From a virus (lineage: Duplodnaviria > Heunggongvirae > Uroviricota > Caudoviricetes), in the IMG/VR virus record IMGVR_UViG_2541047694_000003, positions 1 through 41,023 of that record: a stretch of DNA of 41,023 nt; one strand, written 5' to 3'. The position numbers and the translations under genes were made by a program. Below are positions 3,307 through 22,989 of the stretch, piece by piece. A model generated the notes under the pieces. That model was not told the DNA's origin. It did no database searches and was given only the letters and a program-made list of their open reading frames with translations. The first letter of the stretch is position 1; each line of letters starts with the position of its first letter.

Positions 3307-3851
3307 GCCTCCATCGCTTTATCCGGTTTGTCGGTGTTACTGTCCTGACCGTTCTCTCTGTGACGATGCCCGTTATAGGCAAGCCGCATCGCTGACATGG
3401 TGGTGCCGCCGGAGTCGCACAGGTCTTTCACCTGTCCTGTCACTTCCAGGTCCATTTCAAAACGTGCTTTAGGTGAATTGCGAAACGTGATCGTTTTACC
3501 TGCACCGTCCACCACGATCCCCTCCCGGGTCAGCGTCACGGACTGCCCCTGATCGTCATAGACAGCCACCTCACCCGTCTGCAGTCCTTTCAGGCGGTAG
3601 CGCCGGTCCGACACCGTAACAACCACCGCATGAGAACGGTCGCCATCCGGAAACAACACCACCGCTTCCGCACCGCTGTTTGCCCTTGCGGTAAAACCGT
3701 AGGGTTCAAGATGTTCAACCCCGGCTTTGGGTTCACCGGCAATCAGGGACACATCCACGGTCTGACATTTCGTGGCGGCACTGATGCTTTTCACCACGGC
3801 CCGCCCAATCAGGCCGAGTAGTTGTCGCTGCATGGCTTCAATCGCCCTCAT
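3303..3851 (-). CDS. baseplate assembly protein V / spike (Mu gp45-like)
   Basis: 182-aa ORF, ATGA-type overlap with upstream gene; gene order. Confidence 0.55.
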   Translation of the reverse strand: MRAIEAMQRQLLGLIGRAVVKSISAATKCQTVDVSLIAGEPKAGVEHLEPYGFTARANSGAEAVVLFPDGDRSHAVVVTVSDRRYRLKGLQTGEVAVYDDQGQSVTLTREGIVVDGAGKTITFRNSPKARFEMDLEVTGQVKDLCDSGGTTMSAMRLAYNGHRHRENGQDSNTDKPDKAMEA

Positions 3852-4930
3852 CAGAACGGGTCCTCCTGTACTCTGGCTTTTTTCTTTTTCCGCGCGCCGG
3901 GGTCTTCGGGTTCAGGCAGATAAGCATCAGGCGGGCCGACACGGATTTCCGTCAGGGTGCCGTTCTGGTCCTGAGTAAACGTGACTTCCGAGACAAGCAG
4001 TTCGGTATTGTCAAAACCACAGACCGGATCAAAGACAATCACCCGCTGGTTGGGCTGCCACAGCGTACCGTTACCCTGTCGCCAGCCCTGCACCACATAG
4101 GTGGTTTCATCCGTCCGCGCCGCCCGTTGTCGGGCTTCAAAGTCAGCACGCGCAATACAGCCTGCCCCCGTAGCCTGCCCTGTCTGCCTGATATACATCG
4201 GACGGTAACGGGCAATAAATGCGTCCTCTGTGCGGGCCCGCAGCGCGGTGGTGGTGGCCTCACCGAAATCATCGTCGTTTCCGGCACGCTGCCCCGCCAC
4301 CTGGTAAACAGAAAACCGCTCCCGGATACTCTTCTCCGTATCACAGGAAAGGATATTTTCCCCAAGTACCAGCGCGGTATGTGCCCGCGTTGAGCCAATA
4401 CCGCCAATCACCAGCCTGCCGTGCGGGTCGTCGTAAGCCAGTGCCTGCTGCTGACCGAGTATTTTGTTGATTACCTCAATCACCGTTTCACCGTGATCAG
4501 GCTGAACATCAGGAATAACACCCGATGGCGCACCGCTGTTCACCACCTCAATGCCGAAAGGCGCAGCAAGCGCCTGCGCAATCTGCACCAGCGAGCGTCC
4601 GTTAAACTGTGTCGGTTCGGCTGCACAGTCAATCAGGTCAGCCGTCAGACTACGTCCGGCAATACCGGTGCTGACCGAACGGGCATCGTAATGAACGGGA
4701 GTCGCCTCCACCCAGCCGGTGATCACCAGCTCATCACCAATCAGCACTTCCACTTTTGAACCGTTTTTAATGCGCGGCTGAAGCGTGGTGATACCCTCAT
4801 CACCCGGCCACTGGCGGGTGATCTCCACACTGAAATCCCGCGCCAGCCGTTCAATACCGGCACCGATGCGCACCGATGTCCAGCCATTCCACTCCCGGCC
4901 ATTTACCCGTAGCGTGACATTGTCGTTCAT
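3851..4930 (-). CDS. baseplate hub / late control D-like tail protein (Mu gp44-like)
   Basis: 359-aa ORF following the DNA circulation gene. Confidence 0.55.
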   Translation of the reverse strand: MNDNVTLRVNGREWNGWTSVRIGAGIERLARDFSVEITRQWPGDEGITTLQPRIKNGSKVEVLIGDELVITGWVEATPVHYDARSVSTGIAGRSLTADLIDCAAEPTQFNGRSLVQIAQALAAPFGIEVVNSGAPSGVIPDVQPDHGETVIEVINKILGQQQALAYDDPHGRLVIGGIGSTRAHTALVLGENILSCDTEKSIRERFSVYQVAGQRAGNDDDFGEATTTALRARTEDAFIARYRPMYIRQTGQATGAGCIARADFEARQRAARTDETTYVVQGWRQGNGTLWQPNQRVIVFDPVCGFDNTELLVSEVTFTQDQNGTLTEIRVGPPDAYLPEPEDPGARKKKKARVQEDPF

Positions 4931-6300
4931 TGCACTGGCACCTTCAGAGGGATCACCGGCACAAAGCCGGGATGCGTAATGGCATTACGCCGGATAATGT
5001 CCGCGTCACGCGCCGCGTTATCAAACCAGGTCGCCGCCAGCACCAGCGCGGGTAAAACCTCATCCGGTGTGCGCTGAATGATCCGTGCAGACTGTTCAAG
5101 GCGCGTGTTGATATCCGCATTCAGATCTGCTTTCACCCGGCGCAGCGCCAGAAACAGCGCATCACTGGTTGTACGGGACAACTCCTTATCAATTGCCGTA
5201 TTCAGTGTGTCGCGAATGTCAGTCAGTTCTTCCCACGTCGGCAGGTCAACCGTGTTTTTCACCGCCGGTGCATTGTTCAGTGCCGGATGCGTGACGGCAG
5301 GCCAGCCAGTGCTCTGCGCGGGTGTTGTTGCCTGCCCCACTGCGGAATTCTGCATCACCGCGGAAGTTGTTGGCGCAGGCAATCGCGTGACGGCATACGC
5401 CGCTTCGCTGATTGCGGTCGTACGAAGGGTGCTGGCAACCACGTTACGCTGCTGCGTAGCCGTGGCGGTGGTTTTACTGTCCGTTTTCCAGACGCCGCGC
5501 GGTTGCAGATCGCTGCCGAGGCTGACACCGGAAAGCGTTTTGATCATGGTGACCAGGTCGCTGGCGTTACCATAAAGGCGTTTCCCGGTACGCCACATTT
5601 TCTGCACCTGCTCAACGAAATTTTTGCCTGACGATGGCGGCGGCAGAAGTACCGAGATATCCCCCTGCAACAGCCTGGCGGCATCCGATACGGTAGAATC
5701 CACCACTTTCATCGCATCAGAAACATACCCCAGCATTATGCTGGCATTACCGATAACGTCGTTCTGCACGAAATCCGCCACGCCATCGATACTGAAACCG
5801 CTGAAGCTGTCACTGATGCAGTCATCCAGTGCAGAACAGGATGACATCAGCGTCTGCGCCGTCGCCGCACCTGATGTGGGGTAAGAGAGTTCTCCCGCTT
5901 CGACAAACTTCAGGTCAAAGCGGACAATACGCCCTTCACTTTTCGATGTGCTGACCCGAACTTCCCCGTCAACACAGACTTTCATCTCACCGTATGTCGG
6001 ATGGACAAGCGTGCCGGGACCGGGTTTATTCAGCGCGTCAATCAGGCGATCGCGCTGGTCAAAGCAGTCATCTCCCACCACATAAGCTGTGATGGACGGG
6101 CGGAAAGTGACTTTTCCCAGATCTTCGGTATAAGGCTTGTCGCGGTTCGGGTATTCATGTGTTTCCACACGGCGACCGGTTCCCGCACTTTCTTCTTCAA
6201 CCTTAAACGGCACACCTCGAAATGATGCTTCAAGTAGCTTTTCACGCCAGCCACTTCGAGAATTAGAGGATAGGTACGAAGAAATATGAGAAAAATCCAT
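4927..6300 (-). CDS. DNA circulation protein (Mu gp43/N-like)
   Basis: 457-aa ORF directly downstream of the tape measure region; GAGGTG Shine-Dalgarno before the ATG. Confidence 0.55.
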   Translation of the reverse strand: MDFSHISSYLSSNSRSGWREKLLEASFRGVPFKVEEESAGTGRRVETHEYPNRDKPYTEDLGKVTFRPSITAYVVGDDCFDQRDRLIDALNKPGPGTLVHPTYGEMKVCVDGEVRVSTSKSEGRIVRFDLKFVEAGELSYPTSGAATAQTLMSSCSALDDCISDSFSGFSIDGVADFVQNDVIGNASIMLGYVSDAMKVVDSTVSDAARLLQGDISVLLPPPSSGKNFVEQVQKMWRTGKRLYGNASDLVTMIKTLSGVSLGSDLQPRGVWKTDSKTTATATQQRNVVASTLRTTAISEAAYAVTRLPAPTTSAVMQNSAVGQATTPAQSTGWPAVTHPALNNAPAVKNTVDLPTWEELTDIRDTLNTAIDKELSRTTSDALFLALRRVKADLNADINTRLEQSARIIQRTPDEVLPALVLAATWFDNAARDADIIRRNAITHPGFVPVIPLKVPVQ

Positions 6301-6313
6301 GGTGTCACCTCAA

Positions 6314-6345
6314 ATAAAAACCGCGTGTAAACGCGGTTTTTTATT
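6314..6345. terminator. bidirectional rho-independent terminator-like hairpin
   Basis: AACCGCG-tgtaaa-CGCGGTT stem-loop flanked by an A-run on one side and a T-run on the other. Confidence 0.6.
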
Positions 6346-6356
6346 AGGTAATAAAA

Positions 6357-6845
6357 TTAAAGATCATAATCAACATTATGAGTATCTATTCTACATGATG
6401 AATAAGTAATTCCGCTTTCACCACTAATATTTACGCCAGCCTTTACCTTCCCTGATTTCGTAACATCAACAAAGAATTGCCCTCTTGGCATTTTAAATGC
6501 AAAAGAGAAACCAATAATTTCCGAGTCAAAGTTATTTTCATCCTCACTAATTGGTACAATAAAAGCCAATGGTGCAGATTGTGAGTTATTTTCAAAATCA
6601 AAAACACCAATACCTTTATTAAACTCGTAGGATGCTTTTTTTATTAAAAGAGTTCCACTTGCCGACTTTGCTGGGCATATTACAGACAGTCTATTTATTC
6701 CACCTACATCTAGATCTATATTCTTATCTGCTGAAGTTTTAACGTTATCTATAAAGTATGTAGCAAGCTGCTTTTCCGTTACTGGCTTCGCAAAGGAGTT
6801 TAATGGCAGTCCTGCAGCCAACAACAATATAAACATTTTCTTCAT
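6357..6845 (-). CDS. secreted/periplasmic protein of unknown function (moron inside the tail gene cluster)
   Basis: start chosen at MKKMFILLLAAGLPLNSFA (Sec-type signal peptide, no lipobox Cys) with AGGAGA SD; AT-rich codon usage unlike flanking tail genes; own downstream terminator. Confidence 0.6.
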   Translation of the reverse strand: MKKMFILLLAAGLPLNSFAKPVTEKQLATYFIDNVKTSADKNIDLDVGGINRLSVICPAKSASGTLLIKKASYEFNKGIGVFDFENNSQSAPLAFIVPISEDENNFDSEIIGFSFAFKMPRGQFFVDVTKSGKVKAGVNISGESGITYSSCRIDTHNVDYDL

Positions 6846-6909
6846 ATTCTCTCCTACATTCAGCACAAACTTTACCACTCAATAACCCTACTTGATTAAA
6901 GTAGGGTTA

Positions 6910-8811
6910 TTATCGCCTGAATGGAGAATACCCCACATCGTGCGTGATTTTCATCAGGGGATCGGCTTTGCCCGGTACATCAATTATCTTCATGCCTGGC
7001 GGAGCATTCTCGAACGTGACTTTCAGTTCGCTGTGCTGTGTCATGGAAGAAGATGGATTCAACAGCGGAACATTGGGTTTGTACTGACTCAGGCTGGCCT
7101 GATACTGCTCGTACTCTTTACGATCAAAAAAAGGCGTCCAGTCTGAAGCCAGAAACAGCCCTTTATTATCCAGCCAGTTAACTGTATCTTCAGGAACAAC
7201 ACTTTCCAGAGTATCTTTAACCGGCTCATACATCAGGGTTCCCAGAAAACCATATACCCCGGCCTTCCCGATAAAGCCGCGGCCTTTCCCCATCAATCCC
7301 GTTTCTGCCGACACCTTCCCCAGCGTACGCATCTCTCTGGTCACTGCGGTAATGGATTTGGTAACGTCAGCAACCCATTTGGTTGTCATAAACAGGGCGA
7401 TCGCTTTCAGAACAGTTTCCCATCCCCCCATCGCCTGCGCCGTTTCATCCACCACGCGCCAGACTTTTTTTATGACAGGACCTACGGTTTCCCAGTTATC
7501 AATAATGAGGTAAGCGGCACCGACCAGAAGAGCAATCAGACCCTTAGCAGGCGTCATATTCATCACACCGCCGAGAACTTTCATGATTCTGGACAAAGAG
7601 CCTGCAGCGGCCCCCACTGTCAGTAAAGCCAGACCGATTTTAGCAATGGTCTTAACGAGCTCCGGGTTTTCACGGACAAACGTTCTCACTTCCTCAAGGA
7701 GCGGTTTTACCGCTTCAAGACCATCATTAACCTCAGGAAGAAACGTTTCCCCCAGAGTGGAAGAAATGGCATCAAGTTGATTTTGCAGAAGTAAAAGCTG
7801 GTTTTCCGTCGTCGCTGCCCTCGAAGCATATTCCTTCTGCATCGAACTGCCATACTGCTGGGAATCCGCAACCCGCCTGAAGTTGGTACGCAACAAATCA
7901 AGGTTAGTCAGCAGAGGTGCTATCGCGCCCAGAGACTCTTTCCCGAACAGGGCATTCAGCACAGCTGCCTGTTTTTCTTTAGGCACTTTAGCCATCGCAT
8001 CCAGTACAGACAGCATGGTTCCCCGGGCATCTTTCTGCATATCAGCAGCTAATTTCTTCGGATTGATCCGCAGAAAACGTAATGCCTGTTTCTGCGATTT
8101 TGTCGCTGAATTTCCCGCGGTCAGGGAAAGCATGAAGTTCTTGATCCCTGTGGCGGCAATTTCTGACTCCACGCCCATCCCGGCAATGGTTGCCCCCATT
8201 GCCGCGATTTCGCCGGAAGCCACACCTGCAACACCACCTAAAGGACCAATACGCGTAACAATATCGGAGATTTTCTTCGCATTCGCCGGGCCGGTATTAC
8301 CAAGGTAGTTGATTTTGTCAGCCAGCCCAGCCACTTCATCCTGCGTCATATTAAACGCAGTACGCCACTGGGCCATCATCTGCCCGGACTCTTCAGCCGT
8401 GGTATCAAAGGCCACGCCCATCTTCACCGCATCAGTGGCAAACTGCATCAGTTCATCACGTGCAATCCCGGCCTGACCGCCAGCCGCCACAATTTCCGCG
8501 ATCCCGTCTGCAGACATGGGAAGCTCAGTAGACAAAGCGCGTACCTGCTCCGTCATGGCCTTAAACGCATCCGGCGTATCCAGACCGTCCACCACTTTGC
8601 GGACATCAGCCATCTTCGATTCAAGGGTGATGGCTGATTTTACAGGGAGTGCCAGTGCCCCCATTATTGCAGTACCCGCCCCGGCAGCGCCCAGAGCAAG
8701 GCTGGAGACTTCTTTCTGAAACCCCTTAAGCTGACGCTGCATACCTTTAAGCGGGCCGGACAGCCTGTCAACGGCGGTGATGATGGCTTTCAGCTGAAAA
8801 TTATCAGCCAT
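6910..8811 (-). CDS. tail tape measure protein
   Basis: 633-aa Ala/Gly-rich, helical ORF between tail assembly chaperone and baseplate genes. Confidence 0.8.
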   Translation of the reverse strand: MADNFQLKAIITAVDRLSGPLKGMQRQLKGFQKEVSSLALGAAGAGTAIMGALALPVKSAITLESKMADVRKVVDGLDTPDAFKAMTEQVRALSTELPMSADGIAEIVAAGGQAGIARDELMQFATDAVKMGVAFDTTAEESGQMMAQWRTAFNMTQDEVAGLADKINYLGNTGPANAKKISDIVTRIGPLGGVAGVASGEIAAMGATIAGMGVESEIAATGIKNFMLSLTAGNSATKSQKQALRFLRINPKKLAADMQKDARGTMLSVLDAMAKVPKEKQAAVLNALFGKESLGAIAPLLTNLDLLRTNFRRVADSQQYGSSMQKEYASRAATTENQLLLLQNQLDAISSTLGETFLPEVNDGLEAVKPLLEEVRTFVRENPELVKTIAKIGLALLTVGAAAGSLSRIMKVLGGVMNMTPAKGLIALLVGAAYLIIDNWETVGPVIKKVWRVVDETAQAMGGWETVLKAIALFMTTKWVADVTKSITAVTREMRTLGKVSAETGLMGKGRGFIGKAGVYGFLGTLMYEPVKDTLESVVPEDTVNWLDNKGLFLASDWTPFFDRKEYEQYQASLSQYKPNVPLLNPSSSMTQHSELKVTFENAPPGMKIIDVPGKADPLMKITHDVGYSPFRR

Positions 8812-22203: not shown

Positions 22204-22240
22204 AAAAAAACCCGCTTGTGGGCGGGTTTTGTTTGCTTTT
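22204..22240. terminator. bidirectional terminator just downstream of Q (tR'-like)
   Basis: AAAAAAA-CCCGC-ttgtgg-GCGGG-TTTTGTTTGCTTTT. Confidence 0.55.
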
Positions 22241-22293: not shown

Positions 22294-22989
22294 TCAATCT
22301 ACTTTTGCAACACTTTGCTTTGAAAATGCCGCCTTTTGTTTTGAACGTGTTCTCATTACAAACAATAAAGCCTCACTATCCAGTCGTTGAAAAATGTGTT
22401 TCATTGCAACCCAGTGACGAGTAAATGTTTTGGACCAGTTTTTAGTTGTCACTCCCGCCAGTAATGCCAGCTCCTGGTATTCATAACCTTCCCCACCAAA
22501 AAGTTCTGCTTTTACTGCCTGCGCCGCCAGCCAGATTAATTTTTTCAGGCGTTCCTGCGTTTTCCCTGCAATTTTTCTGGTACCGGATTGAGTATTAAAT
22601 TCATTCCACGCCCACTGTGTTATCGCGATCTGATATTCCCAACAAATACTCTCGCCGTAACACCACAACAACCAGGCTTTATGATGCTCTTCAAGAGACA
22701 GCAAAGCCCGCCGCCATGATGATGTCGAAAACTCAACCGGGCTGACCAGGGCAATTGATGAGCCATTCGCCAGTGATTGTTTTCCCGGGATTGGTGGATT
22801 ATCCCGCGTTATCATTTTTCCAGTCACTTCATCGCGGTACCGGATTTTTTTTCGCCTGTAACGCCCTGTATCGAACATGGCATTCTCCTGCCAGGCTTCA
22901 AGCTGACCTTTTGTTGCCCCACTCAAATCAGCGGTGGCGATAATGAGCTGCTCACGCACAAACTGTAAATACTGGTTATTCATGCGCAC
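22294..22989 (-). CDS. late gene antiterminator Q-like protein
   Basis: 231-aa ORF between rusA and the tRNA/lysis region, canonical Q position. Confidence 0.55.
   Translation of the reverse strand: MRMNNQYLQFVREQLIIATADLSGATKGQLEAWQENAMFDTGRYRRKKIRYRDEVTGKMITRDNPPIPGKQSLANGSSIALVSPVEFSTSSWRRALLSLEEHHKAWLLWCYGESICWEYQIAITQWAWNEFNTQSGTRKIAGKTQERLKKLIWLAAQAVKAELFGGEGYEYQELALLAGVTTKNWSKTFTRHWVAMKHIFQRLDSEALLFVMRTRSKQKAAFSKQSVAKVD

What the first reader, a model, noticed from the sequence alone, without database searches (positions are those of the whole stretch)
6314..6909. Secreted-protein moron inserted between the tape measure and DNA circulation genes
A 162-aa protein with a Sec signal peptide (MKKMFILLLAAGLPLNSFA, no lipobox Cys) and AT-rich codon usage interrupts an otherwise Mu-type tail operon. 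It is flanked by a palindrome at 6881..6905 (AACCCTACT-ttaatca-AGTAGGGTT) and a bidirectional terminator at 6314..6345. A periplasmic or secreted product at this site could be a superinfection-exclusion or host-interaction factor rather than a virion component.
Basis: partly seen in the sequence, partly recalled or inferred. Interest (0 to 1): 0.5.

Follow-up and report, generated by a model that had tools for sequence, protein, structure and literature searches.

The report
Exported accessory gene in prophage tail operon
A dispensable, AT-rich gene for a small protein exported to the periplasm sits between the tape-measure and DNA-circulation genes of an SfV/SfIV-like E. coli prophage, at a junction that carries other exported-protein genes or nothing in sister phages. 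It is a moron-type accessory gene of unknown function, not a virion part.

Summary
Window 6357-6845 (minus strand) encodes a 162-aa protein with a signal-peptidase-I type leader. Its GC is 34% against about 52-57% in the flanks. A strong two-way terminator hairpin follows it, and a 13-nt palindrome lies at the tape-measure stop codon.

SfIV has 99%/95% identical flanking proteins but lacks the gene. SfI, SfII and SfV lack it too. Only 101 of 214 E. coli genomes with this tape-measure end carry it.

It is not a fresh insertion. Homologues at 39-49% identity occupy the same junction in Shigella, E. coli and Erwinia prophages. Each is AT-rich and has its own, different terminator. More distant homologues (23-29%) sit beside partition, toxin-antitoxin and repressor genes of phage-plasmid-like elements. 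The junction is a cargo hot spot: two unrelated exported-protein genes replace it in sister phages.

The family is tiny (17 cluster representatives among 1.84 billion proteins), with no Pfam, PDB or PADLOC match (phrog_5586, unknown function). AlphaFold (pLDDT 89) gives an N-terminal helix plus an eight-stranded barrel, with two conserved cysteines on the first and last strands. No specific structural relative was found.

No promoter beyond chance was detected. Superinfection exclusion is plausible but untested.

The parts
6357..6845 (-). CDS for the 162-aa precursor of a small exported protein (phrog_5586; RefSeq WP_001566765.1). The mature part is 143 aa, about 15.6 kDa, pI about 5.1.
   Evidence: Translation. 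phrog_5586 full-length match, E 2e-82. RefSeq annotation. AlphaFold model with pLDDT 88.8: helix plus 8 strands. Mass and pI.
6789..6845 (-). Codons 1-19: signal-peptidase-I type signal peptide MKKMFILLLAAGLPLNSFA. The inferred cleavage is A19|K20.
   Evidence: Sequence. An equivalent leader ending ..A|K or ..A|N occurs in all full-length family members. No lipobox Cys. No predictor was run.
6846..6909 (-). 64-nt spacer between the tape-measure stop codon and the ATG. It holds the Shine-Dalgarno AGGAG at 6851-6855 and one weak promoter-like candidate (TTAATC-N19-TGgTAAAGT).
   Evidence: Sequence. The candidate scores no better than shuffled sequence. The 50 nt before the ATG are nearly invariant in 19 loci.
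6881..6911 (.). 13-nt perfect inverted repeat with a 5-nt loop, overlapping the tape-measure stop codon. No T-run follows it.
   Evidence: It is perfect in only 6 of 19 related loci, and one locus has a recombination breakpoint in its loop.
6313..6345 (.). Intrinsic terminator hairpin (stem CCGCG.., loop 4) with T-runs on both strands, 11 nt after the stop codon and 12 nt before the DNA-circulation gene's start codon.
   Evidence: It is present in the 19 loci carrying this allele (one with a substitution in the stem). Functionally equivalent terminators of different sequence follow every homologue in tail modules.
6253..6922 (.). Approximate extent of the segment that differs from gene-less SfIV. 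It comprises the last few tape-measure codons, the cassette, and the first ~17 codons of the DNA-circulation gene.
   Evidence: Alignment with SfIV, 720R4 and SfV. N-terminal alignment of the DNA-circulation proteins. No flanking direct repeats.
6910..8811 (-). Upstream neighbour: tail tape-measure protein, 633 aa.
   Evidence: PF10145, E 2e-42. phrog_28.
4927..6300 (-). Downstream neighbour: Mu N-like DNA-circulation / baseplate-hub protein, 457 aa.
   Evidence: PF07157, E 2.5e-34. phrog_184.
22294..22989 (-). Q antiterminator of the same prophage. It implies that late transcription reads through internal terminators.
   Evidence: PF06323, E 2e-91. Read-through is inferred from the established lambda Q mechanism.

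Best explanation
This is a moron-type accessory cassette at a cargo hot spot (the tape-measure | DNA-circulation junction) of SfV/SfIV-like temperate myophages.

Shown:
- The gene is dispensable for the phage and absent from close relatives.
- It is AT-rich and is followed by an intrinsic terminator.
- It encodes a protein with a cleavable-type export signal.
- Its family occurs only in temperate-phage accessory positions.

Inferred:
- The precursor is exported by Sec and cleaved after Ala19.
- It folds in the periplasm into a roughly 15.6-kDa eight-stranded beta-barrel capped by an N-terminal helix.
- A disulfide between Cys57 (end of the first strand) and Cys151 (last strand) closes the barrel.
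- It is made in the lysogen as well as late in infection. The terminator stops non-antiterminated transcripts from running into the baseplate genes, while Q-modified late transcription reads through.

Most likely role (speculative): a periplasmic binding protein that protects the lysogen from incoming phages. It would bind a component that crosses the periplasm during DNA delivery, such as the tape-measure or N-like protein, or a host factor those proteins need.
For: Dispensability:
- SfIV has a 99% identical tape-measure protein and a 95% identical DNA-circulation protein but lacks the gene.
- SfI, SfII and SfV lack it.
- 101 of 214 E. coli genomes with this tape-measure end carry it.
- 14 of the 80 closest IMG/VR loci carry it.

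Composition and terminator:
- The gene has GC 0.34 against 0.52-0.57 in the flanks.
- The terminator is documented.
- All 34 IMG/VR homologues, plus the Erwinia, L004 and L007 loci, are AT-rich. Each is followed by a terminator, and at least 5 unrelated terminator sequences are used.
- Q antiterminator.

Not a virion part: the 23-29% identical homologues lie next to ParA, a CI-like repressor, HigB/MazF-type toxin-antitoxin pairs and IncFII RepA.

Hot spot: two unrelated genes occupy the same junction. One has a signal peptide and one has an N-terminal membrane anchor. Each has its own terminator, and one has a strong promoter-like site.

Export and fold:
- Signal peptides and two Cys are conserved across the family.
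- The AlphaFold model has pLDDT 88.8 and pTM 0.85.
- It resembles small barrels, including periplasmic inhibitors and immunity proteins.

Exclusion idea:
- The classic precedent is the HK97 gp15 moron next to the tape-measure gene (PMC3594210).
- The family diverges together with the adjacent tape-measure type.
- dN/dS is elevated, 0.3-0.9, among close alleles, but on very few substitutions.
Against: - No sigma-70 promoter above the shuffled background lies upstream of this gene or of its tail-module homologues. Expression in the lysogen is therefore unproven.
- Terminators also occur at the empty junction of SfV, SfI and SfII, and after the capsid gene. The terminator may belong to the operon rather than to the cassette.
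- There is no sequence or specific fold match to any known exclusion or defence protein.
- Co-divergence with the tape-measure gene can be simple linkage.
- The phage-plasmid homologues are not next to a tape-measure gene.
Confidence: 0.4

Rival explanations
1. Late-phase accessory protein. The gene has no promoter of its own and is transcribed only with the Q-antiterminated tail operon. The periplasmic product would act during lytic growth, for example by masking receptors or debris so that progeny are not lost, or by tuning lysis timing or envelope integrity.
For: It is on the same strand as the late operon and has a good Shine-Dalgarno sequence. No promoter was detectable. A Q antiterminator is present. 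The position in the tail operon has been stable over deep divergence.
Against: Distant homologues sit in plasmid-maintenance and immunity regions, which are expressed in the carrier state. The 64-nt spacer and the dedicated terminator are unusual for tightly coupled tail genes. Both alternative cargo genes at the junction have promoter-like sites scoring above most shuffles (2% and 8% of shuffles score as high).
Confidence: 0.25
2. Host-fitness (lysogenic conversion) factor rather than a phage-exclusion factor. The barrel would bind a small molecule or a host or environmental protein in the periplasm, for example as an inhibitor of lysozyme-like enzymes, or a binder of bile acids, lipids or vitamins. 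This would benefit carriers such as ST131.
Confidence: 0.2
3. Tail or virion assembly component specific to the SfIV-type tape-measure lineage.
For: It always lies adjacent to that tape-measure type in tail modules and diverges with it.
Against: It carries an export signal, whereas tails assemble in the cytoplasm. SfIV, a described serotype-converting phage with a 99% identical tape-measure protein, lacks it. Homologues occur outside tail modules.
Confidence: 0.03
4. Neutral or decaying passenger DNA with no current function.
For: dN/dS is 0.6-0.9 between some close alleles. In-frame deleted and truncated variants exist.
Against: The reading frame, signal peptide, both Cys and several motifs are conserved down to 23% identity across genera. 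The gene is intact in 101 complete E. coli genomes. It is also intact in an IS1-disrupted Shigella prophage remnant, whose protein cluster has 389 members.
Confidence: 0.07

Closest known systems
HK97 gp15 moron (Juhala et al. 2000; Cumby et al. 2012; reviewed in PMC3594210)
   Same: It is extra, compositionally deviant DNA inside a tail operon, directly beside the tape-measure gene. It is dispensable and encodes a small envelope protein. Exclusion by gp15 depends on the tail region of the infecting phage.
   Different: gp15 is an inner-membrane YebO-like protein located upstream of the tape-measure gene, in a siphovirus, and has a documented promoter and prophage expression. The present protein is a soluble-type exported beta-barrel located downstream of the tape-measure gene, in a Mu-type myovirus tail. 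No promoter or expression was demonstrated, and there is no sequence relation.
Periplasm-facing superinfection-exclusion proteins: T4 Spackle (Sp) and Streptococcus phage TP-J34 Ltp (from my own knowledge)
   Same: These are small exported phage proteins that act outside the cytoplasm on the injection machinery of incoming phages: the tail lysozyme for Sp and the tape-measure protein for Ltp.
   Different: Sp and the Ltp repeat domains are helical, and Ltp is a lipoprotein. There is no sequence or fold similarity here, and the present protein has no lipobox. The resemblance is only in the proposed mode of action.
PHROG family phrog_5586 (unknown function)
   Same: The window protein, P0007, P0012 and P0021 all match this profile. 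The window protein matches over its full length with E 2e-82.
   Different: The PHROG carries no annotation, so membership adds no functional information.
PliC/MliC periplasmic lysozyme inhibitors and other small eight-stranded barrels (avidins, calycins, MoaF-like proteins, some T6SS immunity proteins)
   Different: Sequence identity is 5-15%. There is no Pfam or profile match. Foldseek finds nothing significant. The extra N-terminal helix and the placement of the Cys pair are features of this family.
Lambda-type conversion morons bor, lom and cor (from my own knowledge)
   Same: They are prophage accessory genes for envelope proteins embedded in or near late or tail genes.
   Different: Those are outer-membrane proteins or lipoproteins with known phenotypes. 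They are unrelated in sequence.

Membership tests
Moron (as defined in PMC3594210, after Juhala et al. 2000) | Extra DNA that is absent from otherwise closely related phage genomes | tested here: met
   SfIV has 99%/95% identical flanking proteins and a 24-nt gap between the two annotated genes instead of the cassette. 28 of the 80 closest IMG/VR loci are empty. 113 of 214 E. coli genomes with this tape-measure end lack the gene.
Moron (as defined in PMC3594210, after Juhala et al. 2000) | Base composition different from the surrounding genes | tested here: met
   GC is 0.342 (GC3 0.245) against 0.52-0.57 in the flanks. The same holds for all tail-module homologues, at 0.34-0.40.
Moron (as defined in PMC3594210, after Juhala et al. 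2000) | Own transcription terminator | tested here: met
   The hairpin is at 6316-6341 with T-runs on both strands. Caveat: empty junctions of SfV, SfI and SfII also carry a terminator.
Moron (as defined in PMC3594210, after Juhala et al. 2000) | Own promoter | tested here: inconclusive
   The consensus scan found none on the minus strand. The best weight-matrix candidates score no better than shuffles, with 33% of shuffles scoring as high. Weak or non-canonical promoters cannot be excluded.
Moron (as defined in PMC3594210, after Juhala et al. 2000) | Expression from the repressed prophage | not testable with these tools
   This needs RNA-seq, 5'-RACE or reporter fusions in lysogens.
Sec-dependent, signal-peptidase-I cleaved exported protein | Positively charged n-region, hydrophobic h-region of 10-15 residues, small residues at -3 and -1, and no lipobox | tested here: met
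   The leader is MKK-MFILLLAAGLPL-NSFA|K. The pattern is conserved across 13 or more diverged members. This was checked by inspection only, with no dedicated predictor. P0007 additionally has an LTSC motif that could be a lipobox.
phrog_5586 | Full-length match to the family profile | tested here: met
   E 2.1e-82, residues 1-161 on profile positions 1-161 of 161.
MliC/PliC lysozyme inhibitors (Pfam MliC) | Match to the family profile and its signature motifs | tested here: not met
Structural protein of the Mu/SfV-type tail | Present in all members of the module and located in the cytoplasm for assembly | tested here: not met
   It is absent from SfI, SfII, SfIV and SfV. It carries an export signal. 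Homologues occur outside tail modules.
Known anti-phage defence systems (PADLOC-DB) | Match to a defence-protein profile | tested here: not met
   None of the 12 members matched at E <= 1.
Transposon or IS-borne insertion | Flanking target-site duplication or terminal repeats | tested here: not met
   There are no meaningful direct repeats at the boundaries. The boundaries lie inside the flanking genes.

The most novel reading that the evidence does not exclude
The tape-measure | DNA-circulation junction of Mu-type-tail temperate phages would be a dedicated exclusion island. It would carry interchangeable envelope proteins. phrog_5586 would be a new family of periplasmic, disulfide-locked barrel proteins that bind the ejected tape-measure or N-like protein of incoming phages. 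It would co-evolve with the adjacent tape-measure gene so that the resident phage type is recognised or spared.
Probability: 0.2. Interest if true: 0.6.

Novelty: new member of a known kind. Interest (0 to 1): 0.38.

Why it matters
If the protein blocks phage entry from the periplasm, it would add a structurally new family to the few known periplasmic exclusion proteins. It would also mark a predictable genomic address for finding more of them: at least three unrelated exported cargo genes are already visible at this junction. The gene is carried by about 2% of complete E. coli genomes, including many ST131 isolates, so it could affect phage-therapy host range. If it instead binds a host or environmental ligand, it would be a new lysogenic-conversion factor. 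As it stands, it is a well-delimited but ordinary uncharacterised prophage accessory gene.

Tried and rejected
- AlphaFold with a 3-sequence alignment gave an unusable model (pLDDT 41). Adding nine more family sequences, most of them from the exhaustive HMMER search, fixed this.
- The afdb50 fold library was unavailable.
- Foldseek against BFVD and against the PDB found nothing significant.
- The family profile against PDB sequences gave only noise, E >= 0.57.
- Pfam, NCBIfam and PADLOC gave nothing.
- Rfam gave only sub-threshold hits caused by the terminator hairpin.
- A search for other copies of the palindrome found none, so there is no evidence that it is an operator.
- A transposon-type insertion was rejected.
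- Literature searches for the RefSeq accession, and for morons at this site in the SfV-type phages, found nothing on this gene. The SfIV paper describes a different moron near Q.
The 5-sequence alignment worked.

Full report
**What is in the sequence**

On the minus strand, window 6357-6845 encodes a 162-aa protein, MKKMFILLLAAGLPLNSFA|KPVTEK.... An AGGAG lies 5 nt before the ATG (read). RefSeq annotates the same frame as hypothetical protein WP_001566765.1 in ST131 genomes.

The leader has the classical parts of a signal peptide. These are a basic n-region, a 12-residue hydrophobic core, and S-F-A before the predicted cut. No cysteine is placed to form a lipobox.

GC drops to 0.33-0.35 across the gene, against 0.50-0.61 on either side. 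The gene has GC 0.342 and GC3 0.245, and the flanking 2 kb have 0.52 and 0.57.

Eleven nucleotides after the stop codon is an 11-bp perfect hairpin (6316-6326 / 6331-6341). It is flanked by an A-run and a T-run, so it looks like an intrinsic terminator on both strands.

At the other end, a 13-bp perfect inverted repeat with a 5-nt loop (6881-6911) overlaps the stop codon of the upstream gene. It folds far better than shuffled sequence.

The neighbours are a tape-measure gene (6910-8811) and a Mu N-like DNA-circulation gene (4927-6300). They lie within a sheath, tube, chaperone, tape-measure, hub and baseplate cluster, all on the minus strand.

**Is it extra DNA?**

Yes. In the phage collection only vB_EcoM-720R4 carries the gene.

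- SfIV has a 99% identical tape-measure protein and a 95% identical DNA-circulation protein. The two annotated genes are separated by 24 nt.
- SfV, SfI and SfII have a different tape-measure type and no gene at the junction.
- In complete E. coli genomes, 214 carry this tape-measure 3' end and 101 of them carry the gene, many from ST131.
- Among the 80 IMG/VR loci closest to the DNA-circulation gene, 14 have the gene and 28 have the empty SfIV-type junction. Five have the SfV-type junction, with no gene but a terminator. Twenty-two carry one of two unrelated genes of similar size.

**It is not a recent, one-off insertion**

Homologues of 47-54% identity occur in Shigella flexneri and E. coli (P0007 and IMG/VR loci L114-L120). 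Further homologues occur at 43-46% (metagenomic loci L121-L128) and at 39% (L007 and Erwinia sp. S63). All occupy exactly the same junction.

Their divergence tracks that of the module. The accessory protein is 48% identical where the tape-measure protein is 71% identical. It is 39% identical where the tape-measure protein is 56-60% and the DNA-circulation protein 52% identical.

All of these homologues are AT-rich (0.34-0.40). Each is followed by an intrinsic terminator, and at least five unrelated terminator sequences are used.

There are no flanking direct repeats. The segment that differs from SfIV reaches into the last codons of the tape-measure gene and the first ~17 codons of the DNA-circulation gene, whose N-terminal extension is itself variable. 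One locus has a breakpoint inside the loop of the palindrome.

I infer that cassettes are swapped or lost by recombination in the conserved flanks. The gene-less SfIV form is at least as likely to be a loss as the window form is to be a gain.

**It is not a virion component**

- The product carries an export signal.
- Described, isolated serotype-converting phages lack the gene: SfI, SfII, SfIV and SfV.
- The most distant family members (23-29% identity: P0018, P0020, P0021) are not in tail modules at all.
- Those members lie among IncFII-type RepA, ParA and its partner, HigB/MazF-type toxin-antitoxin pairs and a CI/LexA-like repressor of phage-plasmid-like elements.
- In the 35.3-kb Pantoea element, that region follows the tail-fibre genes.
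- Such regions are normally expressed in the carrier state. That statement is established knowledge for plasmid maintenance genes and is an inference here.

**The junction is a cargo hot spot**

Two alternative occupants were found.

- phrog_8976 is 164 aa with a signal peptide.
- phrog_5485 is 176 aa with an N-terminal membrane anchor.
- Both are AT-rich, have unknown function, and have their own terminator.
- The second has a strong promoter-like TTGTAA-N16-TGaTAGAAT.
- Phage SKA5 also carries a hypothetical gene at this junction.
- So at least three unrelated envelope-directed proteins alternate at one address.

**The protein family**

An exhaustive HMMER scan of 1.84 billion cluster representatives returned only 17 proteins at E < 1e-3. 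Word-indexed searches returned 10 and 16. One scan of 185,579 species-representative genomes returned three loci.

Full-length members are 148-176 aa. Shared features are a signal peptide, two conserved cysteines (Cys57 and Cys151 of the window precursor), and three motifs: CP..SASG, F.FKMP.GQFFVDV and AGVN..GESG.

There is no Pfam, NCBIfam, PADLOC or PDB-sequence match. The only family hit is phrog_5586, of unknown function.

With a 12-sequence alignment, AlphaFold gave a confident model (pLDDT 88.8, pTM 0.85). It has an N-terminal helix followed by eight beta-strands. The two cysteines lie at the end of strand 1 and in strand 8. A disulfide would therefore lock barrel closure, which fits a periplasmic protein.

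**Regulatory signals**

The prophage encodes a Q antiterminator upstream of the lysis and morphogenesis genes. By the lambda paradigm, late transcription should ignore the terminator at 6316-6341. That terminator would then matter only for transcripts that start locally, which is the classical moron logic.

The supporting evidence is incomplete in three ways.

- No promoter better than chance was found upstream of this gene or its tail-module homologues.
- Terminators also occur at the empty SfV, SfI and SfII junction, and after the capsid gene.
- The palindrome is perfect in only 6 of 19 related loci and has no other copy in the window. I assign no function to it.

Rfam gives nothing above threshold.

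**Mechanism**

The best-supported reading is a dispensable cargo gene whose product is exported by Sec and folds into a disulfide-locked periplasmic barrel. It would act in the cell envelope of the carrier.

I rank phage exclusion at the DNA-delivery step first, with low confidence. The reasons are these.

- The gene sits between the genes for two proteins that leave the tail during infection.
- It diverges with the tape-measure type.
- It has the HK97 gp15 precedent.
- It shares its address with other envelope proteins.
- Close alleles show relatively many amino-acid changes, with dN/dS 0.3-0.9 on fewer than 12 substitutions.

Two rivals remain open. One is a late-expressed periplasmic helper. 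The other is a ligand-binding or inhibitor-type conversion factor.

**Verdict**

The element is a new, uncharacterised member of a familiar class. Its modest extra interest comes from the conserved address and the interchangeable cargo.

Noticed in passing
L036 ~3355-3992, L046 ~3350-3986 (IMG/VR loci); L131 2047-2559 (phage SKA5): The same tape-measure | DNA-circulation junction carries two unrelated AT-rich genes in sister phages. phrog_8976 is 164 aa with a signal peptide. phrog_5485 is 176 aa with an N-terminal membrane anchor and a TTGTAA-N16-TGaTAGAAT promoter-like site. Each has its own terminator and both are of unknown function. Both are seen here only with the SfV-type tape-measure protein (about 25% identical to the window's). 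Which gene SKA5 carries at this junction was not checked.
   Followed up: partly
L003 3472-3516 (SfV); L129 1965-2003 (SfII, annotated terminator); L121 and L126 downstream of the homologue: Gene-less SfV, SfI and SfII junctions keep a terminator, CCCACTCCGGTGGG + T-run. It closely resembles the terminator that follows the family member in L121. The SfV-type start region of the DNA-circulation gene resembles that of L126. The 'empty' junction may therefore be a deletion scar, or the terminator may be an ancestral feature of the operon.
   Followed up: partly
L004 5347-5412 (Shigella flexneri contig): In the S. flexneri copy the DNA-circulation gene is cut after 11 codons by what looks like an IS1 end (GGTAATGACTCCAACTTACTGATAGTGT, recognised from memory). 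The accessory gene and its terminator remain intact. This protein cluster has 389 member sequences.
   Followed up: no
window ~13010-13045, minus strand: A second intrinsic-terminator-like hairpin (GACCGCGCCGACGCGG + T7) lies directly after the major capsid gene, inside the Q-dependent late operon. Two more lie just downstream of Q (near 22210 and 21801).
   Followed up: no
L005 ~690-735 and L008 ~2870-2915: Upstream of the two phage-plasmid homologues there is a shared AT-rich near-palindrome, TTAAATAAATATTTAA. It could be a promoter or an operator.
   Followed up: no
window 6521-6594 (direct repeat D1); proteins P0002, P0003, P0005: Metagenome-derived variants carry in-frame internal deletions, for example loss of ENNSQSAPLAFIVPISEDENNF. 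The deletions lie between short repeated DNA and peptide motifs (FDFENN ... NNFDSE). They are either slippage deletions or assembly artefacts.
   Followed up: no
L090 (plasmid pEND_Eco 18005, NZ_CP126947.1) 4929-5417: One copy of the whole SfV/SfIV-like tail module, including the gene, lies on a 205-kb conjugative IncF plasmid of an avian pathogenic E. coli.
   Followed up: no
P0007 residues 10-20: The 48% identical Shigella/E. coli homologue has ...ILTSCCAQA|K. This could be read as a lipobox (L-T-S-C) or as an A-Q-A signal-peptidase-I site. Some family members may therefore be lipoproteins.
   Followed up: no
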